IMG/VR virus record: IMGVR_UViG_3300028048_000141
Coordinates: 1,476-65,475 of that record
Source of the DNA: a virus
Strand: one strand, 5' to 3'
Length of the DNA: 64,000 nucleotides
Both the position numbers and the translations under genes were made by a program. This document shows positions 6,864-46,224 of the stretch, piece by piece (positions within the stretch are counted from its first letter, which is position 1; each line of letters opens with the position of its first letter). The notes beneath the pieces are model-generated. The model was given only the letters and a program-made list of their open reading frames with translations, searched no databases and was not told the DNA's origin.

Positions 6864-9662
6864 TTAGTCTTCCGTGTCGTATTCGTTTAGGAATCTCTCG
6901 TATGCCTCGGTACACAGCGTGTCTATACTGTAGAAGTCGTGGATGAGGTCATACGAATCCTCGAAGTTCATGTCGTAACTGTAGATGTCTATTCCCTTCG
7001 CGTTGTTGGAGATTACGAATCCGATGTAGAGGGTGTTGTCCTCTCCCCACAACAGCGGTGAGTCCGGCTTGTCGTCATCCCAATCGCTTGAGGTGTTCAG
7101 ATACAACGCGTTGTCGTTGAAGATTCCGTACTTCTCCTCAAGGTCATGGCTTGATTCCACACTGTCTTTCGTGTTCCTGTCGTAAAGGTCGGCGTCACCG
7201 CCGGCGTATACGTAAATCTCCCTGCCGTCTTTCTTCAGGCTGAAGATTCCATCTACGCCGCAATACCAGATTGGGTCTCCCCTCTTGGGGTAGACCGGTT
7301 GATGGAACTCAATCGTGAAGCCGTGCCTTTCCGCGTCGGCCTTCATCTTTGCCATGTATTGCTGCGAGCCCGTTTCGTAATCGGTGTCCAAGTTATCCGC
7401 CTCGAAGGTTATGTCCGAGATGTCGCTGTCGTCGATGTCCTCGGTAATGTGCTCCCCGAATTTGAACGTGATGTTATCAGGCTCCTTGTTATATAGGAAG
7501 TTGTATACTATTTTGTTTGACCATCCATCGGGCCTTGATTCGGCGTCGCAGTAGATGACGCACTCAGGCGACTCAATCATGGAGAACGCGAAATCCCCGA
7601 TTGTAGTGACAGATGCCGGGATGTGTACCCTCTTCAGGCTTCTTCCGTAGGTGAACGCCTGCTTTGCGATTTCGGTCGTTCCCTCGGGGATGTCCAACGT
7701 TTCCATGCCGCTGCATCCGAAGAATGCGTCTTTGCCTATTTTCCTTAGGTTATTGGGCAATTGGACCCTCTTCATGTTGCTGCATCCGGAGAAGCATTCA
7801 TCCTGGATTTCCGTGATGCCGTCGGGAATCTTCACTTCCTCAAGTCCACTGAATTTGAACGCGCCGTTTTCGATTGACTTTATCGATTCGGGGAGGATGA
7901 CGTTCCTCAGCATCTTGCATTCGCTGAATGCGAGGCTGCCAATCTTGGTAACGGATTCAGGTATCTCCACTTCCTCCAGTCCCCAGAACCTGGAGCATGC
8001 GTATGCCGGAATCTCAGTCATACCATCCGGGAAGATTACCTTCTTGACGACTGCCCTACTGTCACCTAGGTAATCGTCGCCGCCGTATGTCCACACACCT
8101 CCTGTTCTGTCCAGGAAGTCCTGTTGGCTCAACGCGACATCGAAATCGTGTCTTGATGTGGAGAACGTGTTCTTGAACCACTTCGCTATCTTCTTAGATT
8201 TGCCGACGATGTAGCGTGCGAAGTCCTGGGACGATATCCTTGCGCAGTTTTCGCCGAAGTAATCCCTGTTCCTTGCGATGAACGTCCCTATCGCGTTGTC
8301 GTCGCCGTCCAATACGACGTATGTGTTTCTTATGGCTCCGTTTCCGTTGAAGTTATATTTTACTATGTCGCTGATTCTTTCGGCATTCTGTCCGTCATAA
8401 TACGAAAGGAATTCGTCGTAACTCAAAGGAACGACAACCTTCAATCCCGTCGCGCCGTCTTTCACCTTGGTGGGATTGTCCCTGGCGACGAACTCGATGT
8501 CCCCGATGTCTTCCTCCCCGTTTTCGTCTTCGTGCAGGCTTTGGGGCCTCGATACTCCCCAGATGATTTCTATTCCGTTGAGGAACACGGGTTCCCATGT
8601 CCTGGTGTCGTAATTATACGTCGATGTCTTTCTCTCAATCCAATCCTCTGCCCAACCGTCTGGTTTCTCCGGTGCCTCGCAGTAGACCTTTATTCTGACG
8701 CTGTCCGGGTTTGGTGCGGCCTCGGACCTATACCAGTTTCTGTACAGGTTGAATGCCTGTCTGCCAATCTTCGTGACCGAAAGTGGGATGAATATCTCGC
8801 TTAGTTTTCCGCAGTATGTGAAGCAGCGTTCCTGGATTTCCTGCAACCCATCGGGAAGGATTACCTTCTCAAGGTCATAGCAGTATGAGAACGTCCCTTC
8901 CTTGAGGACCTTGACTTTTGGGGGAATCCTGATTTCCCTTATCCCTGACGAGCAGAATGCATAGGAGCCGATTTTCTCGACGCTGTCAGGCAATTCGATG
9001 CTGGTGACGTTGGGGAACCACCCGAAGGCCCTGGACCTGATTTGCTTCGTCCCCGGTACGACTTCTATTCTCCTTGCCGCCTGTTTGTCCTTATGCGCAG
9101 GCTCCATGTCCGTGGGATAGACGTATGTCCCGGTTTGGGCGACCTTCTGTCCTCCCGCCTTCTTCTTCAATGCCGTCGATGTGTATTTGAATCCCTGGTC
9201 CACGGCCCACTTGGTCAATTTGGGGTCGTTCTGTTTGAAAATCCAGGTCGCCGCGCTGTATCTCGCGAACCTGGGCGAATAGACCCCGGCCCAGTTGGAG
9301 CAGAAAAGGAATTTGTTGTTTTCGTTTTGCTTGTCGATGAACACGAAGGCACTTGGCCAGTTCTTAGTCGTCCACGATTCCTCGTCGACCTGGTCGTATT
9401 CCATCTCGCGGTGATTGTATTTGTAGGGGCTGAGCCATTTAGTGCCGGATGCAAGAAGAATCATGCCGTCGAGGTTCTTCGGCTTGTATACGTCCCATTT
9501 GCTTCCGGAGCAGACCTTGTCCGCGCCGGCGGTGATGTCGACACCCTGGAAATCCAAATCACCGAGGTCGTCCTCGTTGAATTCCGGTTCCTGTTCGACG
9601 GCTGTCTCAGCGTCTATGTCGTCTTCTTTCAATAGTTTCAATGATTCCTTCAAATATCTCAT
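6864..9662 (-). CDS. BspA-type leucine-rich-repeat (LRR_5) protein, 932 aa
   Basis: Two blocks of about 23-aa repeats such as IPDGLQEIQERCFTYCGKLSEIFIPLSVTKIGRQAF. Typical of surface or host-interaction proteins. Confidence 0.7.
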   Translation of the reverse strand: MRYLKESLKLLKEDDIDAETAVEQEPEFNEDDLGDLDFQGVDITAGADKVCSGSKWDVYKPKNLDGMILLASGTKWLSPYKYNHREMEYDQVDEESWTTKNWPSAFVFIDKQNENNKFLFCSNWAGVYSPRFARYSAATWIFKQNDPKLTKWAVDQGFKYTSTALKKKAGGQKVAQTGTYVYPTDMEPAHKDKQAARRIEVVPGTKQIRSRAFGWFPNVTSIELPDSVEKIGSYAFCSSGIREIRIPPKVKVLKEGTFSYCYDLEKVILPDGLQEIQERCFTYCGKLSEIFIPLSVTKIGRQAFNLYRNWYRSEAAPNPDSVRIKVYCEAPEKPDGWAEDWIERKTSTYNYDTRTWEPVFLNGIEIIWGVSRPQSLHEDENGEEDIGDIEFVARDNPTKVKDGATGLKVVVPLSYDEFLSYYDGQNAERISDIVKYNFNGNGAIRNTYVVLDGDDNAIGTFIARNRDYFGENCARISSQDFARYIVGKSKKIAKWFKNTFSTSRHDFDVALSQQDFLDRTGGVWTYGGDDYLGDSRAVVKKVIFPDGMTEIPAYACSRFWGLEEVEIPESVTKIGSLAFSECKMLRNVILPESIKSIENGAFKFSGLEEVKIPDGITEIQDECFSGCSNMKRVQLPNNLRKIGKDAFFGCSGMETLDIPEGTTEIAKQAFTYGRSLKRVHIPASVTTIGDFAFSMIESPECVIYCDAESRPDGWSNKIVYNFLYNKEPDNITFKFGEHITEDIDDSDISDITFEADNLDTDYETGSQQYMAKMKADAERHGFTIEFHQPVYPKRGDPIWYCGVDGIFSLKKDGREIYVYAGGDADLYDRNTKDSVESSHDLEEKYGIFNDNALYLNTSSDWDDDKPDSPLLWGEDNTLYIGFVISNNAKGIDIYSYDMNFEDSYDLIHDFYSIDTLCTEAYERFLNEYDTED

Positions 9663-11605: not shown

Positions 11606-13861
11606 TTATTCGCCGATTATGACTTGGACCGCGGAGTCGACGCTCTTTTTCAAACGCCTTATCCTGTCCCTGAATGAGAGTACCGACGAACCAGATGACC
11701 ATCTTTCACCGAAGAAGATGTCGTCCAGTTTATCCTTCCTCTGTTTCTTGTCCTTGAGGGCCAATGCATTCTCTATCGATTCTACGAGGTTAGTGTATTC
11801 CTCCATGAGTTGCATCAACTGCTCTGATAGGTTCCTAAGCGTCCTAATCTTGATTGGCGACGAGTTAATCTTCTTGACGTTGAACTTGGTCAGATAGGAT
11901 GCCAGTTCCTTTCTGATTCCGTTCAATTCGTCGAGGATGTAGTCCATCGATTTGACTTTGAATTTGCCGAGTTGGATTCTCATCCTCTCGTATTTATGGG
12001 GGTCAAGAAGGTATCCGGATTTATCGTAGCCCTCGGCGTTGGCGAATCTTTGGATTCTCTTGACCGCGGTCTCGACCCACTTATCGTTCTCGTCGTAGTG
12101 GCCAGGAACCTCGACCGGTTCGTCGTGGAGCCTCCATCCCTTCTCCGGATGTCTGCCGTATTTGTCGTCCCATGTGTGGAACTCCGCTCTGCCCCTTCTC
12201 TTTTCCTTCGACCAGTTTGATTCATCCGTCGAATCGTAATAGCAGAAGTCGACCGTGTTGGCGAGGATGTCCCTCTTTGAATATTTATCAAAGGTTTCTT
12301 TGCTCCAATATGAAGGCCAGTAGTAGTATTCGTGGTCGTTCAATCCCGGAATGTAGATTTGGTCCATCTCGGTCGTCTCATCGCCATATCTATATGAGTA
12401 TTTAAGGTGATAGATGGGGACGTATGGTTCCCTGGTGAACTTCGACGCCGGGCTGGGGATATCGTCCAGGGAATAGAAGTGCATCTTGTTCAAGTCGAGG
12501 TTTGCCCTATTGAACAGTTCCTTGGCATCCTTGTTCTTTTTTAGGAAGTCCCTTAGCCATTGCGGCATCGATTCGGAGAATTCCTCATTGAGTTCCAATG
12601 CCTCCTCAACGTCCTCCCCGGACGTGAAGTTTATATGCTTTGCATAGAAAGGTTGGTTTATCCTTTTGCATGCTATCGGATGTCTCTTCGTCGTGATTTT
12701 CACCTTTTCGCATTTGTCGAACGCGTTCAATTCCAAGGTGTCGACCGATTCCGGGAGGTTGACGGTCTCAAGGTTCTTGCACCCCTCGAACGCCGATTCC
12801 CCGATATTCTTCATGGTATTCCCCTCGATTACCACGGTCTTTAGGTTCGGCATGTCCGAGAACATCCCTTGGGCTACTGCGACGAATCCGTTGCCAATCG
12901 TCAATTTCCTTAACTTCGGCCAATTCTGCCACCTTCCCCTGAATTGGGTGATGTCCACGACATCGCCGGAGCGTTCGGTCGTGATTACCACTTCCTTCAC
13001 CAACTTCCTGAATCCGTTGTTGCCCATAATCTTCCTTGCCTCGTAGGACAAATCGCCGAAGTTGTATTCGAGTTTTGCGTCGCCGTTCTCGAATTCGATG
13101 TATTCCCTTACCCTATTCATGCTTTCGAAGTTCGCGAATTCAGGTTTGTCCTTCAATAGATTGAACAACGACCTTCTGCTCAGGAAGAAATCGACGGGTT
13201 CGACTCCGGAGTTGCCGCTGTCCTTGAATTCCCTGAAGTCGTTGAATCTTCTTTCGGGGGCGTATATGGCGAATTGGTATTTTTTGTCCCTGTCGTGTTT
13301 GTTGATTATGATGAAAATCTTTCCGCCGCGTTCGGTATAGTAGTTGTAATAGTGGTCGCTGTCGTGTCTTCCGGTGCACCAGACGGCGTTGTCGCCCCTG
13401 ATGAACTTTGACGCCTCGTATGTCTGTGGGTTCCAGACCTCCCAGTCATCGTTCTTGGCGAACATGACCGCGCCTGGGATTTGCTCCGCCCTGACCTCGA
13501 AATCGGATTTGTCGTAGACGTCGACGGTGTCGAGGAAGGAAGTGAGGTCGGAGAACTTCTTGAAGGCGTTGACGTCCCTGTATTTGGCGTTGTCGCCCTT
13601 GAGTTTGTTCTTGATTGATTTGTATTTCTCCAGTGCGGGTTTTACGGCGTCCCCGATTTCGTCGAAGTCCTCTCCCCTTTTGTGCAGGGTCAAAAGCCAC
13701 TTGCCGAACTCTCCGAGTTTGTTGTTCTCGACCTTGAACGTGGGGTCAAGTGCGATAATCCTGTCGAAATCATCCCTGCCCATCTGCTGGGAATAATACG
13801 TTCCGTATACGGAATCGAGGTCTTCGTCCAATATCAATAGTCTTTTTTCTTCAAACGCCAT
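11606..13861 (-). CDS. large protein with BspA-type LRR repeats plus a WCTG paralog domain
   Basis: LRR_5 repeats such as MPNLKTVVIEGNTMKNIGESAFEGCKNLETVNLPESV. Segment WEVWNPQTYEASKFIRGDNAVWCTG...KIFIIINKHDRDKKYQFAIY is paralogous to the 10358-11554 gene. AAGGAAG RBS. Confidence 0.65.
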   Translation of the reverse strand: MAFEEKRLLILDEDLDSVYGTYYSQQMGRDDFDRIIALDPTFKVENNKLGEFGKWLLTLHKRGEDFDEIGDAVKPALEKYKSIKNKLKGDNAKYRDVNAFKKFSDLTSFLDTVDVYDKSDFEVRAEQIPGAVMFAKNDDWEVWNPQTYEASKFIRGDNAVWCTGRHDSDHYYNYYTERGGKIFIIINKHDRDKKYQFAIYAPERRFNDFREFKDSGNSGVEPVDFFLSRRSLFNLLKDKPEFANFESMNRVREYIEFENGDAKLEYNFGDLSYEARKIMGNNGFRKLVKEVVITTERSGDVVDITQFRGRWQNWPKLRKLTIGNGFVAVAQGMFSDMPNLKTVVIEGNTMKNIGESAFEGCKNLETVNLPESVDTLELNAFDKCEKVKITTKRHPIACKRINQPFYAKHINFTSGEDVEEALELNEEFSESMPQWLRDFLKKNKDAKELFNRANLDLNKMHFYSLDDIPSPASKFTREPYVPIYHLKYSYRYGDETTEMDQIYIPGLNDHEYYYWPSYWSKETFDKYSKRDILANTVDFCYYDSTDESNWSKEKRRGRAEFHTWDDKYGRHPEKGWRLHDEPVEVPGHYDENDKWVETAVKRIQRFANAEGYDKSGYLLDPHKYERMRIQLGKFKVKSMDYILDELNGIRKELASYLTKFNVKKINSSPIKIRTLRNLSEQLMQLMEEYTNLVESIENALALKDKKQRKDKLDDIFFGERWSSGSSVLSFRDRIRRLKKSVDSAVQVIIGE

Positions 13862-13885
13862 AAAAACTCTTCCTTTTGCTATCAG

Positions 13886-13896
13886 TTAATTTAGCA
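13886..13896 (-). promoter_or_regulatory. motif B variant (TGCTAAATTAAC)
   Basis: Sits directly downstream of the 13897-13920 terminator and 22 nt upstream of the ATG at 13861. Confidence 0.45.
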
Positions 13897-13920
13897 ACAG
13901 AAAAAGGACCCGAAGGTCCC
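13897..13920 (-). terminator. rho-independent terminator with a UUCG tetraloop
   Basis: GGGACC-UUCG-GGUCC followed by UUUUUCUGUU. Confidence 0.6.
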
Positions 13921-14556
13921 ATCCGTCTGTATATGTTTTGAGTGTTCTTTGCGAAATGATTTAAGACCGGCCTTCGCCGTACAATACTTCCCAACCGTAC
14001 CTTGTTATCCGACATTCACTGGCTCTGAGGGCAAGGGAGCGACCCAAGCACTTTTCCAATGGCCACTTGCGTGACGATACAACGCCGGGGAGCGGAACCC
14101 CGGAACTTTCACCGAACTTCAGAGACATAAAATCCTTAAGTCATCGTTTTAAAAAGACGTGATACGGCTACTCGCTCGACTTCGATTCCTTATAGCACAT
14201 TACTGTGCGTCAACACGTCCGATACCCGTAGGGTGAGTTGCCGGGCATTATGTTTCTCAGGCATAATACCGCAGGCGGGATGGGATTACTCCCAGTGCCT
14301 CTTGTGGGGCGGAATCCGAAGTCAGGACTAGATACCATTGACATACTGCGACACTGACCAGAGCCTTGCCCTCACGGGTAGGTGAACCGTCCGTAGGCAT
14401 CGCTGCCTTTCCTTCAAGGTCTCGCTTTCCGGAACAGTATCCCATTCCGTAATCGCTACGTCGGCCAGACCCCTGCGGTCCGTAAGACCATCTTCACAGG
14501 GTTGTCAATAAATCCTTTCTCAAAGAACACTCGTGAACCACGCTCTCGCATCGTTC
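13921..14556 (-). ncRNA. candidate structured ncRNA of about 630 nt; ORF-free, bounded by a promoter and a terminator
   Basis: No ORF of 60 aa or longer in any frame. Motif-A -10 at 14565-14570. The terminator at 13897-13920 closes it. GC-rich with many local hairpins. Confidence 0.3.
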
Positions 14557-14560
14557 ACAT

Positions 14561-14578
14561 ACATATTATACACGATAA
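14561..14578 (-). promoter_or_regulatory. motif-A promoter (-10 TATAAT)
   Basis: + strand acatattatacacgataatt. Confidence 0.45.
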
Positions 14579-14645
14579 TTCCGAAGAGTGTAAATTTTTT
14601 TACGAATTTTCTCTTCGCAATCAACCGGCAGGTTTTCGCCCGCCT

Positions 14646-14656
14646 TTAATTTAGCG
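14646..14656 (-). promoter_or_regulatory. motif B
   Basis: 36 nt downstream of the tRNA-Gln 3' end and about 80 nt upstream of the motif-A -10. Confidence 0.4.
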
Positions 14657-14682
14657 TGTATTTTTTGCGCATTTTTGCGCTT

Positions 14683-14757
14683 TGGCTGGGGCGGGTGGAT
14701 TCGGACCACCGCATCCGCGGTTCAAAGCCGCGTGCCTTACCGCTTGGCTACACCCCA
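14683..14757 (-). tRNA. tRNA-Gln (anticodon UUG)
   Basis: Cloverleaf parsed by hand. Acceptor UGGGGUG/CGCCCCA, anticodon loop CUUUGAA, encoded CCA. Confidence 0.75.
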
Positions 14758-14762
14758 ATGTG

Positions 14763-14838
14763 TGGCACCCTCTGGGGGACTCGAACCCTCAACCTACTGC
14801 TTAGGAGGCAGTCGCGATATCCTTTTCGCCAAGAGGGT
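14763..14838 (-). tRNA. tRNA-Arg (anticodon CCU)
   Basis: Acceptor ACCCUCU/AGAGGGU, loop CUCCUAA, T-loop UUCGAGU, CCA. Confidence 0.7.
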
Positions 14839-14846
14839 GTGTCGGT

Positions 14847-14922
14847 TGGCACCCCGGGCAGGACTCGAACCTGCAACTTACTGCTTAGAAGGCAGTTACT
14901 CTATCCATTGAGTTACCGGGGT
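14847..14922 (-). tRNA. tRNA-Arg (anticodon UCU)
   Basis: Acceptor ACCCCGG/CCGGGGU, D-stem ACUC/GAGU, loop CUUCUAA, 76 nt, CCA. Confidence 0.8.
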
Positions 14923-14950
14923 ATTTATGGGCTTTCCGTCCACCCACCGT

Positions 14951-14962
14951 ATATTATACACG
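14951..14962 (-). promoter_or_regulatory. internal motif-A promoter inside the tRNA cluster
   Basis: atattatacacg on the + strand. Confidence 0.4.
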
Positions 14963-15009
14963 AAATCGGCAGAGGATGCAAATGTTTTTTTTCGGATGCG
15001 TTCCATCCG

Positions 15010-15083
15010 TGGCGGGCCCTGAGAGAATCGAACTCACATTCTTCGGTTAACAGCCGAGCGTTCTGCCTTTGAACTAAGGGCCC
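15010..15083 (-). tRNA. tRNA-Asn (anticodon GUU)
   Basis: Acceptor GGGCCCU/AGGGCCC, loop CUGUUAA, T-loop UCGAUUC. Confidence 0.75.
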
Positions 15084-15086
15084 GTA

Positions 15087-15171
15087 TGGTGGGAGGTGAT
15101 AGAGTCGAACTACCCGAGCCGATGGCAACTGTTTTACAGACAGTCCCGCTACCCCTACGGTATAACCTCCC
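15087..15171 (-). tRNA. tRNA-Tyr (anticodon GUA), class II
   Basis: 85 nt with a long variable arm. Loop CUGUAAA. Acceptor GGGAGGU/ACCUCCC. Confidence 0.75.
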
Positions 15172-15175
15172 GCGT

Positions 15176-15246
15176 TGGTCGCCGCACATGGAATCGGACC
15201 ATGCCTACGGAGGTATGAACTCCGCTTCGCCCCAGACTATACGGCG
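15176..15246 (-). tRNA. tRNA-Met/Ile2-like (anticodon CAU)
   Basis: Anticodon stem CGGAG/CUCCG with loop UUCAUAC. T-arm CAUGG-UCCGAUU-CCAUG. The D-arm folds poorly. Confidence 0.5.
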
Positions 15247-15248
15247 TT

Positions 15249-15323
15249 TGGTGGATTAGGTTGCGCTCGAATCAACTTCTGCAGATTTTCAGTCTGCCAC
15301 TCTACCATATAAGTTACTAATCC
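15249..15323 (-). tRNA. tRNA-Phe (anticodon GAA)
   Basis: Acceptor GGAUUAG/CUAAUCC, anticodon stem GCAGA/UCUGC, loop CUGAAAA. Confidence 0.7.
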
Positions 15324-15327
15324 ATAT

Positions 15328-15405
15328 TGGTTGTGAGGACGGGATTCGAACCCATACCCTCCCGGCTCCGGACCGGGTGTGCTACCAAGTTACATCCACC
15401 TCACA
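15328..15405 (-). tRNA. tRNA-Pro (anticodon CGG)
   Basis: Stem CCCGG/CCGGG with loop UCCGGAG. Acceptor UGUGAGG/CCUCACA. Confidence 0.65.
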
Positions 15406-15409
15406 ATGT

Positions 15410-15485
15410 TGGTGCCCCGAGAGGGATTCGAACCCCCAGACTACTCGTTCTAAGCGAGCATTGTATACCGTTCCAGCATCGGGGC
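15410..15485 (-). tRNA. class-I tRNA-like with anticodon UAG (Leu-type anticodon in a 76-nt body); atypical D-arm
   Basis: Acceptor GCCCCGA/UCGGGGC, anticodon stem GCUCG/CGAGU, loop CUUAGAA, T-arm GGGGG-UUCGAAU-CCCUC. No canonical D-stem could be found. Confidence 0.4.
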
Positions 15486-15499
15486 GATTCGGACGGATG

Positions 15500-15574
15500 T
15501 GGTAGGCTGGGGCAGAGTCGGACTGCCGTCTCAGACTTATCAGGTCTGCGTTCTGACCGTTAAACTACGAGCCT
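15500..15574 (-). tRNA. tRNA-Ile (anticodon GAU)
   Basis: Stem CAGAC/GUCUG with loop CUGAUAA. T-arm GGCAG-UCCGACU-CUGCC. One C-C mismatch in the acceptor stem. Confidence 0.65.
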
Positions 15575-15580
15575 ATTCAT

Positions 15581-15658
15581 TGGCGGACCACGAGGGAGTC
15601 GAACCCTCCTCTCTACCGTGACAGGGTAGCATACTCAGAACCGATATACGAGTAGTCC
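15581..15658 (-). tRNA. tRNA-Asp (anticodon GUC)
   Basis: Stem CUACC/GGUAG with loop CUGUCAC. T-arm GAGGG-UUCGACU-CCCUC. Confidence 0.7.
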
Positions 15659-15662
15659 GTTT

Positions 15663-15739
15663 TGGTGCACTAGGGAGGGCTCGAACCTCCGACCTCCAAC
15701 TTGTAAGGTTGGCACTCATCCCATCTGAGTTACTAGTGC
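15663..15739 (-). tRNA. tRNA-Val (anticodon UAC)
   Basis: Acceptor GCACUAG/CUAGUGC, D-stem ACUC/GAGU, stem CCAAC/GUUGG, loop CUUACAA. Confidence 0.8.
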
Positions 15740-15748
15740 ATATTAATT

Positions 15749-15827
15749 TGGTCGGGAGGGTGGGATTCGAACCCACGCCCTCTTGCTTCCAACGCAAGCA
15801 CGATAGACCAAACTACGCTACCTCCCG
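15749..15827 (-). tRNA. tRNA-Pro (anticodon UGG)
   Basis: Acceptor CGGGAGG/CCUCCCG, stem CUUGC/GCAAG, loop GUUGGAA, T-arm GUGGG-UUCGAAU-CCCAC. Confidence 0.7.
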
Positions 15828-15930
15828 ATGAAAAAGGGTGACACGGATTTTTCGTCCATGCCACCCTCGAAGTTGATTTAGAGCCTTGTTACCGCTAATT
15901 ACCACCTGAAATGGGCATGGACAAATAACC

Positions 15931-15945
15931 AATCATATTATAATC
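15931..15945 (-). promoter_or_regulatory. motif-A-like -10 (TATAAT) upstream of the tRNA block 15010-15827
   Basis: + strand catattataatcaaag. Confidence 0.35.
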
Positions 15946-16025
15946 AAAGACTGGTCTGGGTTGCACGAATACGAGATTGTCGTTTAGTCTCTTTGTCATG
16001 ATTGTCCTTCTCCTTTTTCAGACAC

Positions 16026-16036
16026 TTAATTTAGCG
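16026..16036 (-). promoter_or_regulatory. motif B. Its AGCGA forms a hairpin with a downstream TCGCT
   Basis: + strand TTAATTTAGCGAgtcgttttCGCT. Confidence 0.4.
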
Positions 16037-16093
16037 AGTCGTTTTCGCTTCAATGATTTTGTTAACAAACTTTTCGATTATGTCGTTTGTCAA

Positions 16094-16181
16094 TGGCGGA
16101 GGCACCGCGACTCGAACGCGGACGCCGGTTGCCCGACGGACACCTTAGCAGGGTGTTGAGATGCCATTACTCCATGCCTCC
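16094..16181 (-). tRNA. tRNA-Ser (anticodon GCU), class II
   Basis: 88 nt. Acceptor GGAGGCA/UGCCUCC, loop CUGCUAA, long variable arm. Confidence 0.75.
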
Positions 16182-16195
16182 TGGTTTAACTTCAA

Positions 16196-16269
16196 TGGAG
16201 CGGGCGACGGGAATCGAACCCGTATGACCACCTTGGCAAGGTGGCGTTCTACCATTGAACTACGCCCGC
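16196..16269 (-). tRNA. tRNA-Gly (anticodon GCC)
   Basis: Acceptor GCGGGCG/CGCCCGC, D-stem GUUC/GAAC, stem CCACC/GGUGG, loop UUGCCAA. Confidence 0.8.
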
Positions 16270-16272
16270 AAA

Positions 16273-16347
16273 TGGAGCGGGATACCGGAATCGAACCGGC
16301 GTCTCCTGCTTGGAAGGCAGGGGCCCTGACCATTGGACTAATCCCGC
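16273..16347 (-). tRNA. tRNA-Gly (anticodon UCC)
   Basis: Acceptor GCGGGAU/AUCCCGC, stem CCUGC/GCAGG, loop CUUCCAA. Confidence 0.8.
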
Positions 16348-16350
16348 ATG

Positions 16351-16427
16351 TGGAGACCCCAACGGGATTCGGACCCGTGAATGCAACCTTGAGAGGGTTG
16401 TGACTTAAGCCGCTTGTCTATGGAGCC
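16351..16427 (-). tRNA. tRNA-Glu (anticodon CUC)
   Basis: Acceptor GGCUCCA/UGGGGUC with two G-U pairs. Stem CAACC/GGUUG, loop CUCUCAA. Confidence 0.65.
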
Positions 16428-16449
16428 GTTTTATGATGTTACTATACAC

Positions 16450-17100
16450 CACATCATGGGGGTGAGGCTTATTCTACGCTCGTTTCTATTTCGCCTCTGC
16501 CGTTCGCTTCCACGAGAAGGCACTTCACTAGCCCAGCCTGCTTTCTTCTTACAGGAACATTCTAGGTTCTACCTGGGAGGGACTGTACCCACATACACAG
16601 GATTCTGGGTGTGGAACTTTTCCGGATGCCGTTTTGTGCATCACACGCTGTACTTGGTGGACTCGTTTATGCTGTGCCCTTTTGCAGCCGTAGGCGTAAT
16701 ATCCCGCTTCCGTTTGAATTCGGGCAGTTTGATGTGATTGCCCGGCACATTAGGTGTGCACGCTTACCCTTCCTCTCGTCGTGCCTCCTACCGTTCCTTT
16801 TTTACTTCTTCGGCGTAACGGCTAAGATACCAATTAAGGTTTTGTTTATTTGTCCTGCTTCTTCAACGACCTGCGCCGTCTGAGCCGGGCCTTTTGATTC
16901 GACGCACTTCCCGGTCGCGTCACCATTAGCCAGGTCCTACCTTATCCTGGTTTTCAACCCCATTCTGCATCATCCCGGATATTCGGGACCGTTTTCTCAA
17001 GGGTGAGGTCGCAGAGGTTTTACGTCTTCGTGCCGACGGGCTGTAAACATGATGCCTTAATACAATCACTTGCGGCATATGCTGTTATCATAGGGAAGTG
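16450..17100 (-). ncRNA. candidate structured ncRNA of about 650 nt; ORF-free, downstream of tRNA-Trp
   Basis: No credible ORF; the + strand ORFs here overlap tRNAs or have no signals. GC-rich. Bounded by tRNA-Trp and the tRNA-Glu promoter. Identity unknown. Confidence 0.25.
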
Positions 17101-17112
17101 AATGACCTATGA

Positions 17113-17186
17113 TGGCAGGCCTGCTAGGATTCGAACCCGGATACGCGGTTTTGGAGACCGCAGTCCTACCGTTGGACGACAGACCT
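17113..17186 (-). tRNA. tRNA-Trp (anticodon CCA)
   Basis: Acceptor AGGUCUG/CAGGCCU, D-stem GUCC/GGAC, stem GCGGU/ACCGC, loop CUCCAAA. Confidence 0.7.
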
Positions 17187-17196
17187 ATGTTCAGGA

Positions 17197-17718
17197 TTAG
17201 TCTTCTTCCGACTTCTCCTGTTCGAGAACCCAATCCAGGTTCTCCTTGTCGACATACCATATCTCGGCCTCATCGCCGTCGATTTTGGTCGGGTGGAATA
17301 CCCAGTCGCCTGATTTGACCTTCAATGCGTCGTTGATGTAGACATCTCCCCATCCGTCGCATTTCCTGAAGCCAACCCAGTATTTCCAATCCTTAAGGAA
17401 CCTCTCGGCATCATTCGCCTTCATTTCCATAAGTTGTTCCTCGGTGAAGTAGTGTGACAGCAACCAAGCCGCGGCGTACTCCGAGGATATCGAATCCTCG
17501 TCAATACATACCTTACGGCAGATGCCGTCCATCAGGGCTCCGGCAGACAGTTTGTCGTAGACCCTGCCACCATAACCCTCGTGCATGCAGAACGTGGCGA
17601 TGTCCGCGTAATCGAGGACGACGTCCCTCTTGCCTTCGTATTCACCCATTGTGAAGTAATTGGCCGTGAGTTTGAAGTGGTCGACCACCTTCAATTCAAG
17701 TTCATCCAAAACAAGCAT
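17197..17718 (-). CDS. hypothetical protein
   Basis: The listed ORF start overlaps tRNA-His. The ATG at 17718 (MLVLDEL...) has an AAAGGAG RBS. Confidence 0.55.
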   Translation of the reverse strand: MLVLDELELKVVDHFKLTANYFTMGEYEGKRDVVLDYADIATFCMHEGYGGRVYDKLSAGALMDGICRKVCIDEDSISSEYAAAWLLSHYFTEEQLMEMKANDAERFLKDWKYWVGFRKCDGWGDVYINDALKVKSGDWVFHPTKIDGDEAEIWYVDKENLDWVLEQEKSEED

Positions 17719-17736
17719 AGACTCTCCTTTCTGCAT

Positions 17737-17811
17737 TGGGGTGGGATAAGGGTGTCGAACCCATGTCCTCCGGTTCACAGCCGGATGCACTGCCGTTGTG
17801 CTAATCCCACC
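17737..17811 (-). tRNA. tRNA-His (anticodon GUG) with a genomically encoded G-1 and C73
   Basis: Reads G-GUGGGAU...AUCCCAC-C-CCA. Stem UCCGG/CCGGA, loop CUGUGAA. The extra 5' G pairs with discriminator C73. Confidence 0.75.
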
Positions 17812-17819
17812 AAGGTATG

Positions 17820-17905
17820 TGGTGCCCATGGTCGGACTCGAACCGACACGCTTTAGGGGCGGCAGATTTTGAGTCTGCTGCGTCTACCGGTTTCGCCACA
17901 CGGGC
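17820..17905 (-). tRNA. tRNA-Leu (anticodon CAA), class II
   Basis: 86 nt. Stem GCAGA/UCUGC, loop CUCAAAA, long variable arm, T-arm GUCGG-UUCGAGU-CCGAC. Confidence 0.7.
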
Positions 17906-17909
17906 ATGA

Positions 17910-17997
17910 TGGCGGAGAGTTAGGGATTCGAACCCCAGGTAGGTTGCCCTACTTCTGTTTTCAAGACAGACGCCTTCGACCGCTCGGCCAACTCTCC
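17910..17997 (-). tRNA. tRNA-Ser (anticodon UGA), class II
   Basis: 88 nt. Acceptor GGAGAGU/ACUCUCC, loop CUUGAAA. Confidence 0.8.
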
Positions 17998-18026
17998 ATT
18001 ATGGCTCCAGAAGGAGCCGTCGTTCA

Positions 18027-18428
18027 TTACTTGTCGCTCTTCAAGTAGGCGTGGCGAGCATCCAACTCGTCGATGGCCTCGCGAACCGTGTGTGCAAGGT
18101 AATCGACCTTGTTGAGCAGTTTTACGAGTGCCTCGCGGGCTTCGCGGTTGCCTTTGGCTTCCGCACGCTTGGATGCTAACACCTTACCGAAGATTTCGTC
18201 ATAGACGTCGTTGGGATTGCATTTGGCAACGCCGGCGGTCTTGAATCCGACTTCGGCGTTGCAGGAATTCCAGTTGAACGCCTGCGCCTCGTCAAGGGCC
18301 CGCATGACTTCCGAATGGGCCTTGTCGATGGCTTTGTCGGGCCTGTAGTTGGTGATGCCAAGCACAGTGGTGACGGGTCCTTTGCGAATGACTTTCTTCT
18401 CGGTGAATTTGAATGCCTTGGTGCTCAT
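18027..18428 (-). CDS. hypothetical protein
   Basis: 133-aa ORF. Confidence 0.5.
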   Translation of the reverse strand: MSTKAFKFTEKKVIRKGPVTTVLGITNYRPDKAIDKAHSEVMRALDEAQAFNWNSCNAEVGFKTAGVAKCNPNDVYDEIFGKVLASKRAEAKGNREAREALVKLLNKVDYLAHTVREAIDELDARHAYLKSDK

Positions 18429-18458
18429 GAGATTTCCTCCTTAATTATAGGTATTCAT

Positions 18459-18532
18459 TGGTGCCCCAGGGTCGAATCGAACGGCCGTCGGATGCTTACA
18501 AGGCAACTGTTCTGCCATTAAACTACAAGGGC
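18459..18532 (-). tRNA. tRNA-Thr (anticodon UGU)
   Basis: Acceptor GCCCUUG/CUGGGGC, D-stem GUUU..GAAC, loop CUUGUAA. A few mismatches. Confidence 0.55.
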
Positions 18533-18555
18533 ATCTGAGCAACTTGCCGGCACTT

Positions 18556-18566
18556 TTAATTTAGCG
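18556..18566 (-). promoter_or_regulatory. motif B, 22 nt upstream of the tRNA-Thr 5' end
   Basis: CGCTAAATTAAAagtgccggcaagttgctcagat, then the tRNA begins. Confidence 0.4.
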
Positions 18567-18580
18567 AAGGCTGGCTGCTC

Positions 18581-18594
18581 AAATATATTATACA
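18581..18594 (-). promoter_or_regulatory. motif-A promoter (-10 TATAAT)
   Basis: + strand atattatacatg. Confidence 0.4.
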
Positions 18595-18621
18595 TGATTT
18601 TTTCGAAGGGTGCAACGATTT

Positions 18622-19350
18622 TTATTTGGACTTTCTTTTGATTGCCCTGTCAATCGCCACCCTGTGGATGGAAGGCACGTCCTTCAACTTGCCTCCCTCG
18701 ATGATTGATTTCAGGTTTACCGGGGTGTAGTCGATGAACTCGGCGCACATGTTCATCCTATTTGGGTTTCCGCCCTCCCAGTTCGAGTGGTCGTGTCCGT
18801 GGATGTTGAACATGTACGGTGGAAGGTTCTCTATCGGTTCGTGTGACAAGATTATTTTGTCGTTAATCATGAGGGGACCTTCGTAGACTTCGTCGAACAG
18901 TTTGTTGTCGACCGTCTCCACGGTCGTGTATTTGCTTAGGACGTAGGTGTTAGCCTTCCTGAAGGCCTGCTTGTCCCCGTTGATGGCGGCCATCGTGTAC
19001 ATGTTCAAGAGCGTCGCGTCCTCGGCGGTCATGTTCTCATTCGAGAATTTCTCGACGGTGTTGACTTCCCTCCTGTAGTTGGTGACACCCTTGTCGTGGT
19101 TGCCCATGATAAGGACTTTGTAACCTTTTATTTTCCTGATGTAGTTGACGTCCCCGATGTCGCCAAGGAAGATGATGGTGTCGTTTTTGCCGACCTTTTT
19201 GTTTATCCTTCTGACTTGCTCGTCGTCTCCGATGTAGTCTTTGCGGAGGTGTTTCATCTCATCGTCACCGAAATGCGGGTCGCTGTAAATCCAGATGCTT
19301 CCGCCACGATACCATTTATCCGCGAATATCTCGTATAGGTGTTTTTTCAT
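18622..19350 (-). CDS. calcineurin-like metallophosphoesterase
   Basis: Motifs SDPHFG, GDIGD, GNHD and GHDH. Confidence 0.7.
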   Translation of the reverse strand: MKKHLYEIFADKWYRGGSIWIYSDPHFGDDEMKHLRKDYIGDDEQVRRINKKVGKNDTIIFLGDIGDVNYIRKIKGYKVLIMGNHDKGVTNYRREVNTVEKFSNENMTAEDATLLNMYTMAAINGDKQAFRKANTYVLSKYTTVETVDNKLFDEVYEGPLMINDKIILSHEPIENLPPYMFNIHGHDHSNWEGGNPNRMNMCAEFIDYTPVNLKSIIEGGKLKDVPSIHRVAIDRAIKRKSK

Positions 19351-19352
19351 GG

Positions 19353-19694
19353 TTAATCCTCCATCTGGAAACTTCTTTCCGGCTGTTGTCTCCGTTGCTC
19401 ATAGATGTGTGAAGGAGTGTGCTCGGAAACAGCGAGGTCTTTGACGGTTATTATCGTGACGTTGACGCTGGTCTTGGAACCGTCTCTCTTATTTTTCAGG
19501 ACGTCGACGTATGAGTGTTCGACGTTTACGACTTCCTGGTTAAGATACGTGGGACTGATTACGGGCACAATAGAGCCTTTTACAAGGCAGATGTAATAAC
19601 AGCAGATGTAATGACCTACGAAATCTGCCTCTTTGACAATGGCGCAGATTTCACCTGCGTCGAGATGTGACTCTAGGTATTCTTCAAGTTTCAT
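19353..19694 (-). CDS. hypothetical protein
   Basis: 113-aa ORF abutting the upstream and downstream genes. Confidence 0.5.
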   Translation of the reverse strand: MKLEEYLESHLDAGEICAIVKEADFVGHYICCYYICLVKGSIVPVISPTYLNQEVVNVEHSYVDVLKNKRDGSKTSVNVTIITVKDLAVSEHTPSHIYEQRRQQPERSFQMED

Positions 19695-22887: not shown

Positions 22888-22963
22888 TGGTGGACCCTAC
22901 CGGGCTCGAACCGGTGACCTCCTGCTTGCAAAGCAGGCGTTCTCCCAACTGAACTAAGGGCCC
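22888..22963 (-). tRNA. tRNA-Ala (anticodon UGC)
   Basis: Acceptor GGGCCCU/AGGGUCC with a G3-U70 wobble. Stem CCUGC/GCAGG, loop UUUGCAA. Confidence 0.8.
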
Positions 22964-23693: not shown

Positions 23694-23999
23694 TTATTTT
23701 TTGCTTTCTTTTTCCTTCGAGGCCTTCAGTGCGTTCTGCTTGACGTTCCTGAAGAACTCCTCGCGTTTCTCTTTGGTATCGAGTCTTCTGAAGTCGCCCC
23801 AGAGTTCGTCAGAGACGTTTCTGACGCCTCTGGCCGTGCAGGAAGCCTCAAACGATTCCCTGTCGTTGTGCTTGGACAACATCCCGCACTTCGCCATTTC
23901 CATTCTCATGGTCTTGGAGTATTCGTGGAACATCTTCCTTTTGGGGCCGTGTTTCTTGTGAGGTCCGGCTGACCCCGTCTTCGCTTTTCCTTTTGCCAT
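23694..23999 (-). CDS. small basic protein, possibly DNA or RNA binding
   Basis: 101 aa, K/R-rich at both ends. AAAGGAG RBS. Confidence 0.5.
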   Translation of the reverse strand: MAKGKAKTGSAGPHKKHGPKRKMFHEYSKTMRMEMAKCGMLSKHNDRESFEASCTARGVRNVSDELWGDFRRLDTKEKREEFFRNVKQNALKASKEKESKK

Positions 24000-25665: not shown

Positions 25666-26541
25666 TTATTCCCCGACGTTGATGAGGTTTTCGACGTAGT
25701 CCCTTCCGGAGTCGACGAACCTCGGGATGTCGTCGTCGATATCCCATCTGCTGTAGAATTTGGTATCGCGTGGAAGTTCGCATGTGCTGTCTGTGAAGAA
25801 CAACCATCCGCCTTCCGGTGTCGGATAGACCTCTTCCTCGGAGTGCTCGTTTCCGTCGGGGTCCTTGAAGTAGCACCTCTTGACGCAGCAACTGCCACGT
25901 TTGTATGTGGTAGGTTCGTTTCCCCAAACAAATCCCTTCTCCCTCTCCATCTTGTCGACGAGTTGCGGGCAGGTGAGGTTTTGGAGTTGCTTGTGGGAGA
26001 ACATGGATTGGGCATAGGATTGGATGGAGTTCCTCTCCGCGTCCAACTGCCTCCAAAAAATGCAGTTCGTTACCTCTTCCTTCGGGATGTTGAACGCCCT
26101 GGCGTCGAACGTGGCCTGGAAGAGTTTCCTTGCGTATTTCTTGAATTCGTTTTCGTTCTCGGTCATCTCCGCGATGTTGTTCATGAACACCCTGTTGAAT
26201 TCGAGGGTGGCCATCGAAGCACTGATTGAGACGAGTTTCTGGACGTCGTATTCGAACCAGGCGGAAGACGTGAGCGTCTGATAGTCGACCAACACCAACG
26301 TGATTTCGTCCGATTGCGTGTATCCCAGGACGCAGCCCTGGATGTTCTTGCAGAGGTACTGCATCGTCTCCTGCATGGACTTGACGAGTATCGCGTCGAT
26401 TGGTTTGTCCATCCCCTTCGTGAATGTGTGGAAGGCCCTGCCGTCGATTCTGATGATTACCGGTGTCCTTCTGGTTAGTTTGAGTTTTGCGGGGTTTTCG
26501 TAGAATGCCTTCATCCTATCCCCAAGTGAGTCCTTTACCAT
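25666..26541 (-). CDS. Thg1-like protein (tRNA-His guanylyltransferase family, 3'-5' polymerase)
   Basis: VIIRIDGRAFHTF and LGYTQSDEITLVL match the two hallmark Thg1 catalytic motifs, VVVRLDGRNFHRF and AYGQSDEYSFVF. Confidence 0.75.
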   Translation of the reverse strand: MVKDSLGDRMKAFYENPAKLKLTRRTPVIIRIDGRAFHTFTKGMDKPIDAILVKSMQETMQYLCKNIQGCVLGYTQSDEITLVLVDYQTLTSSAWFEYDVQKLVSISASMATLEFNRVFMNNIAEMTENENEFKKYARKLFQATFDARAFNIPKEEVTNCIFWRQLDAERNSIQSYAQSMFSHKQLQNLTCPQLVDKMEREKGFVWGNEPTTYKRGSCCVKRCYFKDPDGNEHSEEEVYPTPEGGWLFFTDSTCELPRDTKFYSRWDIDDDIPRFVDSGRDYVENLINVGE

Positions 26542-45522: not shown

Positions 45523-45597
45523 TGGTCCTCCAGCAGGGAGTCGAACCCCGATTTAGCCCTTATAAGGAGCCCACTCTGACCGTTGAGTTACAGGAGG
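45523..45597 (-). tRNA. tRNA-Ile (anticodon UAU, reads AUA)
   Basis: D-stem ACUC/GAGU. Anticodon stem GGCUC/GGGCU with G-U pairs. Loop CUUAUAA. T-arm CGGGG-UUCGACU-CCCUG. Confidence 0.55.
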
Positions 45598-45605
45598 ATA
45601 TGTCA

Positions 45606-45690
45606 TGGTGCCCAAGACCGGAGTCGAACCGGTATGCCTTTCGGCGAGGGATTTTAAGTCCCTTGCGTCTACCGATTCCGCCACTCGGGC
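45606..45690 (-). tRNA. tRNA-Leu (anticodon UAA), class II
   Basis: 85 nt. Acceptor GCCCGAG/CUUGGGC, stem AGGGA/UCCCU, loop CUUAAAA, long variable arm. Confidence 0.75.
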
Positions 45691-45827: not shown

Positions 45828-46224
45828 TGGTGGACCCGCCGGGAGTCGAACCCGGGTCCAAATACCTTTGGGCGACAATCTCTACATCTTAGTCGATTTG
45901 ATTGTGACGGCAGGATGTTTAACCGACAACGTCCCCTGACCGTGTACGCCACATTTGTTTTCGCTTTCCTCGGGTGACGTTCCTCGGTTCGCTAGTCCGA
46001 TTGTTTGCCCGAATACCGCCATCAGACTTCACGGGATTCAGGAGAGCCGTTACTCAGATTAGTAACTTAAGGCCATTCTAGGAGTGCCAACTTTGAAGAG
46101 GTTGGCGAAGAATGATTTGACTCTGTTGATTAAAGATTTGCCATTTGTTGTTTGTTTGGTTTATGGTGACCAACCGATGCAATCGTAACCCGCAAATACC
46201 TGTCAAAACCAAATATACGAGCCC
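45828..46224 (-). ncRNA. ssrA: tmRNA (SsrA), about 397 nt
   Basis: 3' end GGACCCGGGUUCGACUCCCGGCGGGUCCACCA is a T-arm plus acceptor with no anticodon arm, as in E. coli GGACGCGGGUUCAACUCCCGCCAGCUCCACCA. The 5' end GGGCUCG pairs with CGGGUCC including a G3-U70 wobble, and A73 follows. The 5' region UUUGACAGGUAUUUGCG and GGUUGGUCACCAUAAACC parallel E. coli UUCGACGGGAUUUGCG and GGUUGGCCUCGUAAAAAGCC. The tag ORF is not resolved. Confidence 0.65.

What the first reader, a model, noticed from the sequence alone, without database searches (positions are those of the whole stretch)
13921..14556. ORF-free, promoter-driven, terminator-closed region of about 630 nt; candidate large ncRNA
No ORF of 60 aa or longer exists in any frame between the motif-A -10 at 14565 and the UUCG-loop terminator at 13897-13920. 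This is far longer than an ordinary phage intergenic gap. The region is GC-rich and full of local complementarity. I tested the sequence by eye against tmRNA, RNase P RNA, SRP RNA and group I intron hallmarks. None fit convincingly, so the identity is open.
Basis: seen in the sequence. Interest (0 to 1): 0.55.

Follow-up and report, generated by a model that had tools for sequence, protein, structure and literature searches.

The report
Phage-encoded ROOL RNA (nanocage RNA)

Summary
The region is real and is a large structured ncRNA gene on the minus strand. Rfam's ROOL model (RF03087) matches 13950..14525 (-) end to end at 160.9 bits (gathering 99.1, E 5e-34). No other family matches. A recurrent phage promoter motif (TTTACA-18-TATAAT, 14594..14565) lies 39 nt upstream of the model start. 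A GGGACC-UUCG-GGUCC + U-tract terminator (13920..13897) lies 30 nt downstream. The closing helix P1 extends 12 bp beyond the Rfam model (14532..14521 with 13951..13940).

The eight nearest relatives, all metagenomic phage contigs, are at most 58% identical. Against them the window keeps 124 of 148 consensus pairs, 35 through compensatory double changes. It also keeps the covarying B4 kissing-loop pair (UGAG/CUCA) and the GGGUCGCUCCC loop, which form inter-subunit bridges in the cryo-EM octamer.

The setting is typical of ROOL: a phage genome, at the 3' end of a 22-tRNA array, with a tmRNA elsewhere in the window. The only ORF of 60 aa or more inside (62 aa) is not conserved.

Biological function is unknown for the whole family. 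The best-supported mechanism is self-assembly into an RNA-only nanocage during infection.

Novelty: new, divergent member of a known kind. Interest is modest.

The parts
14565..14594 (-). Promoter: -35 TTTACA (14594..14589), 18-nt spacer, -10 TATAAT (14570..14565). It contains the recurrent phage motif TCGTGTATAATAT (14575..14563). The inferred transcription start is about 14558.
   Evidence: 11/12 match, best in 13000..19500. (12 matches to the motif in the window, 11 on the - strand, vs 0.97 expected). The start site is inferred from spacing, not measured.
14533..14558 (-). Predicted 5' leader hairpin (GUGAAC...GUUCAC) directly abutting P1. It is not part of the Rfam model.
   Evidence: The MFE and centroid folds of the 662-nt transcript both contain it. 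It is not conserved in relatives (alignment A1), so its status is uncertain.
14521..14532 (-). 5' strand of a 12-bp extension of closing helix P1 (GAGUGUUCUUUG), lying outside and overlapping the unpaired ends of the Rfam model.
   Evidence: Perfect complement of 13951..13940. In 9 sequences, 94.4% of cells are paired and 4 of 12 pairs show compensatory changes; slid controls give 40-57%.
13950..14525 (-). ROOL RNA core (Rfam RF03087, model positions 1-574 of 574).
   Evidence: 160.9 bits, gathering 99.1, E 4.6e-34 (window-wide) / 7.9e-36 (local). 123 of 149 ungapped model pairs are canonical, and 132 of 191 conserved consensus nucleotides are identical.
14253..14261 (-). Hairpin loop CCUGAGAAA. 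UGAG (14259..14256) is the 5' partner of the B4 kissing loop, which is intermolecular in the cryo-EM octamer.
   Evidence: Family alignment: loop UGNN covaries with downstream NNCA (UGGU/ACCA, UGGC/GCCA, UGAG/CUCA, UGAU/AUCA, UAGCA/UGCUA). B4 residues are taken from Suppl. Table 2 of PMC12286853.
14234..14237 (-). CUCA, the 3' partner of the B4 kissing interaction.
   Evidence: Sequence read.
14195..14208 (-). Hairpin GCACA-GUAA-UGUGC with a GNRA tetraloop. It corresponds to the loop that donates the B2 A-minor contact (A366) in env-120.
   Evidence: CM alignment. Suppl. Tables 1-2 of PMC12286853. The correspondence is by model position, not by a 3D model.
14115..14164 (-). Variable AU-rich linker (about 50 nt) enclosed by the GCCG/CGGU stem. 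It is the equivalent of the disordered linker that points into the cage interior.
   Evidence: CM alignment places it in the model's long variable hairpin loop. It is unalignable among relatives. Its role in the cage comes from PMC12286853.
14035..14045 (-). GGGUCGCUCCC hairpin (UCGCU loop). Its GC dinucleotide makes the symmetric B6 bridge between half-shells in env-120.
   Evidence: Identical to the family consensus. B6 = G565-C566'.
13940..13951 (-). 3' strand of the P1 extension (CAAAGAACACUC).
13897..13920 (-). Intrinsic terminator: GGGACC-UUCG-GGUCC stem-loop (13920..13905) followed by UUUUUCUG.
   Evidence: Also present in the MFE fold.

Best explanation
[quoted passage not shown] It is most likely transcribed from its own promoter (about 14558) to its own intrinsic terminator (about 13897), giving a non-coding RNA of about 660 nt. 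The RNA folds into the ornate ROOL secondary structure, closed by a long P1 helix.

By homology with the ROOL RNAs solved by cryo-EM, eight copies are expected to self-assemble, without protein, into a hollow D4-symmetric nanocage about 28 nm across, with the variable AU-rich linker pointing into the cavity.

Shown here: family membership, conserved and compensated secondary structure, retention of two inter-subunit contact motifs (B4, B6) and of the B2 donor loop, promoter and terminator consensus sites, and the phage/tRNA-array context.

Inferred: that it is expressed as a discrete transcript, that it forms the octamer, and what the cage does. No biological role is established for any ROOL. 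The leading hypothesis in the literature is encapsulation or sequestration of a macromolecule (tRNAs, ribosomal subunits or other cargo) during infection.
For: - Rfam RF03087 matches full-length at 160.9 bits against a gathering score of 99.1. Nothing else matches at E<=1 in 13700..14800 except the neighbouring tRNA.
- 123 of 149 model pairs are canonical and 132 of 191 conserved nucleotides are identical.
- RNAalifold on the window plus its 8 nearest relatives gives 149 pairs, 79 with double changes.
- The window alone keeps 124 of 148 of these pairs, against 59.5 +/- 5.7 with shuffled partners. 35 are kept through compensatory changes, at <=58% sequence identity.
- The P1 extension is supported by covariation.
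- B4 kissing-loop complementarity is kept as UGAG/CUCA within a family-wide covarying pair. The B6 loop is identical to the consensus.
- Thermodynamic z-score is -4.16.
- Promoter and terminator are present.
- Context matches the published family description. There are 25 tRNAs and a tmRNA in a phage window, and the same ROOL + tRNA + tmRNA arrangement is seen in other phage contigs. The literature describes ROOL as phage/prophage-borne and near tRNA islands.
- The octamer cage structure comes from PMC12286853 and from Ling et al. as summarised in PMC12515178.
Against: - It is the lowest-scoring ROOL of all those examined (160.9 bits against 204-406).
- 24 of 148 subgroup consensus pairs are broken in the window.
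- No complement for the B1 kissing loop is evident. The 5' hairpin loop is UUACG, and it is invariant (UUGCG) in the subgroup.
- The hairpin loop that carries the B5 stacking adenosine is UUCCGCU here, not A-rich. Cage geometry or stoichiometry could therefore differ.
- No expression data are available. The promoter and terminator are consensus matches only.
- The function of the family is unknown.
Confidence: 0.93

Rival explanations
1. The region encodes one or more small proteins that were overlooked, for example the 62-aa ORF at 14257..14445 (-), and the RNA structure is incidental.
For: A 62-aa ATG ORF exists on the transcribed strand.
Against: The aligned region contains stop codons and/or frameshifts in all 8 related sequences. 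Substitutions follow base-pair covariation, not codon structure. The full-length ROOL match explains the sequence.
Confidence: 0.02
2. It is a decaying, non-functional ROOL relic: a pseudogene carried along with the tRNA array, no longer able to fold or assemble.
For: It has the lowest Rfam score among the ROOLs seen. 24 consensus pairs are broken and the B1/B5 motifs are not recognisable.
Against: 35 pairs are maintained by compensatory double substitutions at <=58% identity, which requires continued selection on structure. P1, the conserved loops and the B4 complementarity are intact. A dedicated strong promoter copy and a clean terminator flank it. Part of the low score is compositional: 52% GC against a family median of 42%. 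In addition, the CM alignment is locally out of register in the central helix, which does pair in the RNAalifold consensus.
Confidence: 0.04
3. It acts mainly in cis, as a long structured 5' leader or processing platform. On this view it is co-transcribed with the upstream tRNA array and/or the downstream 751-aa LRR-protein gene, rather than being a free-standing RNA.
For: ROOL RNAs are often adjacent to tRNAs, and co-transcription has been suggested. The downstream ORF starts only 36 nt after the terminator U-tract. Read-through cannot be excluded.
Against: A separate copy of the phage promoter motif lies between tRNA-Gln and ROOL, and a canonical intrinsic terminator lies between ROOL and the ORF. 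Neighbouring genes differ completely among ROOL loci, which argues against a gene-specific cis role.
Confidence: 0.05

Closest known systems
ROOL RNA, Rfam RF03087 (Weinberg et al. 2017, PMC5737381). Cryo-EM structures: env-120 (PDB 9MDS, Kretsch et al. 2025, PMC12286853), and ROOL-Efa / ROOL-Firm (Ling et al. 2025, as summarised in PMC12515178).
   Same: - Full-length match above the curated threshold.
- About 580-nt core with multi-junction architecture closed by P1.
- The conserved blocks are present: GUGAAGA, GGGAUAC, GUAGCC, UCUGAAG, GGUGAAAGUU, GGGUCGCUCCC, CUCAGA, CGAAGG.
- The variable internal linker, the B4 kissing complementarity and the B6 loop are all present.
- Encoded in a phage next to a tRNA array.
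   Different: - Only 37-45% identical to mainstream ROOLs and <=58% to the nearest relative found.
- Highest GC of the 62 ROOLs compared.
- P1 is 12 bp longer than the model.
- The 5' hairpin loop (B1 partner in env-120) and the B5 loop have different sequences.
- It has its own promoter motif and terminator, whereas other examples lie between tRNAs.
Divergent ROOL subgroup found here in IMG/VR and other metagenomic contigs (L085, L177, L215, L162, L091, L072, L104, L106).
   Same: - Shares the invariant GAUGGUCUUGCGGACCGC-type 5' hairpin, UCUGAAGYUCGGUGAAAGUU, and the extended GUUCUUUG/CAAAGRAC P1.
- Lower Rfam scores than mainstream ROOLs: 204-222 bits for the three members scanned (L085, L091, L072).
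- Three members (L072, L104, L215) lie beside or within tRNA arrays.
   Different: - The window retains the GNRA-capped helix (AGGCA-GCGA-UGCCU) that the other eight have deleted.
- It has a much shorter linker (50 nt, against about 75-95 in most of the relatives).
- It is 42-49% divergent from them.
[quoted passage not shown]
   Same: - Large ornate phage/prophage RNA near tRNA arrays.
- Forms an RNA-only nanocage with an internal disordered linker.
- Function unknown.
   Different: - Unrelated sequence and secondary structure.
- 14-mer with D7 symmetry, 38 nm across.
- No GOLLD match in the window at the Rfam thresholds.

Membership tests
ROOL RNA (RF03087) | Covariance-model score above the curated gathering threshold, covering the whole model | tested here: met
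   160.9 bits vs 99.1; model 1-574 of 574; not truncated.
ROOL RNA (RF03087) | Core of about 580 nt with an ornate multi-junction secondary structure closed by a long-range P1, supported by covariation | tested here: met
   576-nt core. 123 of 149 CM pairs are canonical. RNAalifold on 9 sequences gives 149 pairs, 79 with compensatory changes. The window keeps 124 of 148, 35 of them compensatory. P1 plus its 12-bp extension is 94% paired.
ROOL RNA (RF03087) | Highly conserved nucleotide blocks in loops and junctions | tested here: met
   132 of 191 upper-case consensus positions are identical. GGGUCGCUCCC, GGGAUAC, GUGAAGA, GGUGAAAGUU, CUCAGA and CGAAGG are present.
ROOL RNA (RF03087) | Covarying loop-strand tertiary pairing. 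It was originally called a pseudoknot and is the intermolecular B4 kissing loop in the cryo-EM cage. | tested here: met
   Window UGAG (14259..14256) / CUCA (14237..14234). The pair covaries across 62 ROOLs. Residue identities come from Suppl. Table 2 of PMC12286853.
ROOL RNA (RF03087) | Internal variable linker with no sequence or structure conservation | tested here: met
   14164..14115 falls in the model's variable hairpin loop. It is unalignable among relatives.
ROOL RNA (RF03087) | Encoded in phages or prophages, often beside tRNA islands | tested here: met
   22 tRNAs at 14683..18532 lie immediately upstream on the same strand. Phage-type genes are present: family A DNA polymerase, Pnkp/RNA ligase, Thg1-like.
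ROOL RNA (RF03087) | Other inter-subunit bridges of the octamer: B1 kissing loop, B5 A-A stack, B3 P7 daisy chain | tested here: inconclusive
   B1: no complement to the UUACG loop was found after the linker. B5: the equivalent loop is UUCCGCU, not A-rich. B3/P7 is not always conserved in the family. Mapping was by motif only, because the text copy of env-120 lost 9 nt.
ROOL RNA (RF03087) | Protein-free assembly into a homo-octameric nanocage | not testable with these tools
   Needs mass photometry or cryo-EM of the transcript. Known for env-120, ROOL-Efa and ROOL-Firm only.
ROOL RNA (RF03087) | Expressed as an abundant discrete RNA | not testable with these tools
   Only promoter and terminator consensus sites are available. 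There are no transcript data.
   At E<=1, only ROOL and the adjacent tRNA match in 13700..14800. The window's tmRNA is elsewhere, at 45828..46224.

The most novel reading that the evidence does not exclude
This GC-rich ROOL and its small subgroup may represent a structurally distinct ROOL variant. The subgroup has an invariant 5' hairpin, no recognisable B1 or B5 contacts, and a longer P1. It could therefore assemble with different inter-subunit contacts or stoichiometry. Alternatively, it could work together with the uncharacterised small basic protein 'sp101' (window 23694..23999). Homologues of sp101 sit directly upstream of ROOL in 5 of 6 testable subgroup loci, and otherwise at the head of phage tRNA arrays. 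That protein would be the first candidate protein partner of a ROOL or tRNA island.
Probability: 0.1. Interest if true: 0.6.

Novelty: new member of a known kind. Interest (0 to 1): 0.3.

Why it matters
ROOL is one of very few natural RNAs known to build a closed, protein-free cage larger than a ribosome, and its biological role is still unknown. Each divergent, well-delimited copy helps to separate what the cage needs (here the B4 and B6 contacts, P1 and the core junctions survive 55-60% sequence divergence) from what is dispensable (linker length, the B1 and B5 motifs, the P7-type hairpin). This copy comes with clear transcription signals, in a phage that also carries 25 tRNAs, a tmRNA and RNA-repair and tRNA-maturation genes. 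That fits the idea that ROOL belongs to a phage translation/RNA-maintenance module. For genome annotation, the practical message is that this 'long intergenic gap' is a known RNA gene that protein-centred pipelines leave blank.

Tried and rejected
- blastn ('distant') of the locus against 50,697 INPHARED phage records gave no match.
- Relatives of the adjacent 751-aa LRR protein in IMG/VR: none found, so synteny could not be used to find orthologous ROOLs.
- An 18-mer of the subgroup hairpin was scanned in metagenome and genome collections. Most hits were chance matches in GC-rich genomes. No ROOL was found in the returned bacterial genome loci, so no host could be assigned.
- The CM-derived structure was transferred onto a MAFFT alignment. 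Several central helices then looked 'window-only'. I traced this to an off-by-one error in my P1 extension and to a register shift in the CM alignment of the central helix. It was corrected with RNAalifold and recounting.
- Residue-exact mapping of cryo-EM contacts was not possible. The text copy of env-120 is 650 nt rather than 659 nt, so I mapped by motif instead.
- I searched for a B1 complement in the window and subgroup. Nothing convincing was found.
- The 62-aa ORF as a gene: rejected.
- sp101 characterisation: no Pfam or PHROG family. The AF2 model (pLDDT 76) has no Foldseek match in the PDB. Its linkage to ROOL or tRNA genes is frequent but not universal.

Full report
**Observation**

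The stretch between tRNA-Gln (14683..14757, minus strand) and the start codon of a 751-aa ORF (13861, minus strand) contains no credible gene.

TTTACA-18-TATAAT lies at 14594..14565 on the minus strand, matches 11 of 12 positions, and is the best site between 13000 and 19500. Its core TCGTGTATAATAT has 12 matches in the window (<=2 mismatches), 11 of them on the coding (minus) strand, against 0.97 expected by chance. The minus-strand copies checked against the ORF list (for example 14951, 50917 and 57637) lie between genes. One further copy lies inside the tRNA array at 14951..14963.

The terminator GGGACC-UUCG-GGUCC followed by UUUUUCUG lies at 13920..13897.

Two details of the observation are inexact:
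- A 62-aa ORF (14257..14445, minus) lies inside the region.
- The region is only marginally GC-richer than the rest: 51-52% against 49.9% for the window.

**Identity**

A gathering-threshold Rfam scan of the whole window gives a full-length match to ROOL RNA (RF03087) at 13950..14525 on the minus strand. The score is 160.9 bits against a gathering score of 99.1, with E 4.6e-34 and model positions 1-574 of 574. A permissive scan of 13700..14800 finds nothing else except the neighbouring tRNA. This disposes of tmRNA, RNase P, SRP, group I intron and GOLLD for this locus.

In the CM alignment, 123 of 149 ungapped model pairs are canonical, and 132 of 191 conserved (upper-case) consensus nucleotides are identical.

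**Anatomy**

- The inferred transcript runs from about 14558 to about 13897 (662 nt).
- Its MFE is -245.9 kcal/mol, z = -4.16 against dinucleotide shuffles.
- The fold contains a 5' leader hairpin (14558..14533), a long closing helix and the terminator hairpin.
- The closing helix P1 extends 12 perfectly complementary base pairs beyond the Rfam model: GAGUGUUCUUUG at 14532..14521 pairs with CAAAGAACACUC at 13951..13940.
- In nine sequences this extension is 94.4% paired, with compensatory changes at 4 of 12 pairs. Slid-partner controls give 40-57%.
- The model's long variable hairpin loop corresponds to an AU-rich linker of about 50 nt (14164..14115).

**Relatives and structure conservation**

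No similar DNA exists in 50,697 deposited phage genomes.

Pattern scans of IMG/VR and metagenomes, followed by nhmmer, recovered about 100 ROOL loci. A small subgroup of eight distinct sequences is closest to the window: L085, L177, L215, L162, L091, L072, L104 and L106. Even these are only 51-58% identical, and mainstream ROOLs are 37-45% identical.

The three subgroup members that were scanned score 204-222 bits with Rfam, and mainstream ROOLs score 350-406. The window is therefore the most divergent member seen. Part of this is composition: its GC content is the highest of the 62 ROOLs compared (51-52% against a median of 42%).

RNAalifold on the nine-sequence alignment independently predicts the ROOL architecture, with 149 pairs of which 79 show double (compensatory) changes. 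The window forms 124 of 148 of these pairs, against 59.5 +/- 5.7 when partners are shuffled. Relative to the commonest pair of its eight relatives, it has 79 pairs identical, 10 changed on one side, 35 changed on both sides and 24 broken.

An earlier count used the CM-derived structure on the MAFFT alignment. It also exceeded all controls: 53 pairs with double changes, against 28.7 in shuffles and 12-34 in slid controls. That count suffered from a register shift in the central helix and from an off-by-one error in my P1 extension, which I corrected later.

The 62-aa ORF is broken by stops or frameshifts in all eight relatives.

**Mechanism**

Published cryo-EM work shows that ROOL RNAs assemble without protein into a D4-symmetric homo-octameric cage of about 28 nm, with the variable linker disordered inside (Kretsch et al. 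2025, PMC12286853; Ling et al. 2025 as summarised in PMC12515178).

I mapped the published inter-chain bridges (Suppl. Table 2) onto the window by motif. Exact residue mapping was not possible because the stored text of env-120 had lost 9 nt. The results are:

| Bridge | Contact in env-120 | Finding in the window |
|---|---|---|
| B4 | Loop UGGUA with UACC; the most conserved quaternary contact | Kept as UGAG (14259..14256) with CUCA (14237..14234) |
| B6 | GC in the U(C/U)GCU loop | Sequence identical in the window: GGGUCGCUCCC, 14045..14035 |
| B2 | GNRA loop donating an A-minor contact | Present: GCACA-GUAA-UGUGC |
| B1 | Kissing loop | No recognisable counterpart; the 5' hairpin loop is UUACG, invariant (UUGCG) in the subgroup |
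| B5 | A-A stack | No recognisable counterpart; the loop is UUCCGCU |

Across 62 ROOLs the B4 pair covaries (UGGU/ACCA, UGGC/GCCA, UGAG/CUCA, UGAU/AUCA, UAGCA/UGCUA, UGGUG/CACCA).

So the core of the assembly interface is conserved, but cage formation by this particular RNA is an inference.

No biological role is established for any ROOL. The literature proposes encapsulation of tRNAs, ribosomal subunits or other cargo, and no later paper in the library changes this.

**Context**

All long ORFs in the window are on the minus strand. The window carries:
- 25 tRNAs, 22 of them in an array at 14683..18532 that ends just upstream of ROOL;
- a tmRNA at 45828..46224;
- a family A DNA polymerase whose best matches are Clostridium and Streptococcus phages at 36-39% identity;
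- a Pnkp/RNA-ligase fusion;
- a Thg1-like tRNA-His guanylyltransferase;
- a metallophosphoesterase.

The same combination of ROOL, tRNA array and tmRNA is seen in other phage contigs. It fits the published description of the family.

The gene downstream of ROOL encodes a 751-aa BspA-type LRR protein with no relatives in IMG/VR.

**Verdict**

The RNA belongs to a known family, so the find is a new, divergent member rather than a new kind. Interest is modest. The value lies in comparative structure (what survives about 60% divergence), in a cleanly delimited transcription unit, and in a possible lead, noted in passing, to a small basic protein associated with phage structured-RNA islands.

Noticed in passing
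window 23694..23999 (-): An uncharacterised 101-aa basic protein ('sp101', with the conserved N-terminal motif MAKGK...AGPHKKHGPKRKMFH) has no Pfam or PHROG family. Homologues (36-46% identity) lie 370-740 nt directly upstream of ROOL, on the same strand, in 5 of 6 testable subgroup loci (L106, L072, L091, L215, L162). In other contigs they immediately precede tRNA genes (window, L227, L228, L229, L235), and in three contigs neither is nearby (L231, L232, L234). Only 13 clusters exist in 5.8 billion proteins. The AF2 model is a small helical domain with a disordered basic tail and has no PDB fold match. It is a possible RNA-island-associated RNA-binding protein.
   Followed up: partly
window 14683..18532 (-), plus 22888..22963 and 45523..45690: There are 25 tRNA genes, all on the minus strand, 22 of them in one array interrupted by a few ORFs (e.g. 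17197..17829, 210 aa, with a 47%-identical homologue in ROOL locus L215). The set reads 19 of the 20 amino acids (none for Lys or Cys, plus one CAU tRNA).
   Followed up: partly
window 45828..46224 (-): A phage-encoded tmRNA (RF00023, 94.6 bits, full length) is flanked by tRNA-Ile(tat) and tRNA-Leu(taa). ROOL + tRNA + tmRNA co-occurrence is also seen in IMG/VR loci L001, L004, L006 and L030.
   Followed up: no
window: 6088, 10314, 14563, 14951, 18585, 23663, 28934, 32197, 38881, 50917, 57637 (all -): A recurrent promoter-like motif TCGTGTATAATAT (<=2 mismatches) occurs 11 times on the coding strand, against about 1 expected. It probably marks one temporal class of phage promoters. One copy drives ROOL and one sits inside the tRNA array.
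   Followed up: partly
window 61723..63996 (-), 25666..26541 (-), 18622..19350 (-): An RNA repair and maturation gene set is present: a 757-aa Pnkp-like kinase/phosphatase/RNA-ligase fusion (phrog_8238, E 6e-198), a Thg1-like tRNA-His guanylyltransferase (phrog_4717), and a calcineurin-like phosphoesterase. Together with the tRNAs, tmRNA and ROOL, they suggest a large investment in translation and RNA maintenance.
   Followed up: no
window 11606..13861 (-) and 6864..9662 (-): Two large proteins downstream of ROOL share BspA-type leucine-rich repeats (PF13306; phrog_35892/18805). The 751-aa one has no relatives in IMG/VR by the pattern/tblastn search.
   Followed up: no
L227 (Logan DRR595521 contig, 8 kb) and L228 (ENA ERZ27257203, 10.7 kb): These are the only close relatives of the window's phage that were found. 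Their sp101 is 99% and 80% identical, with the same local gene order (topoisomerase/Thg1 ... sp101 ... tRNA-Ala). Both contigs end before the tRNA array and ROOL, so an orthologous ROOL could not be compared.
   Followed up: partly
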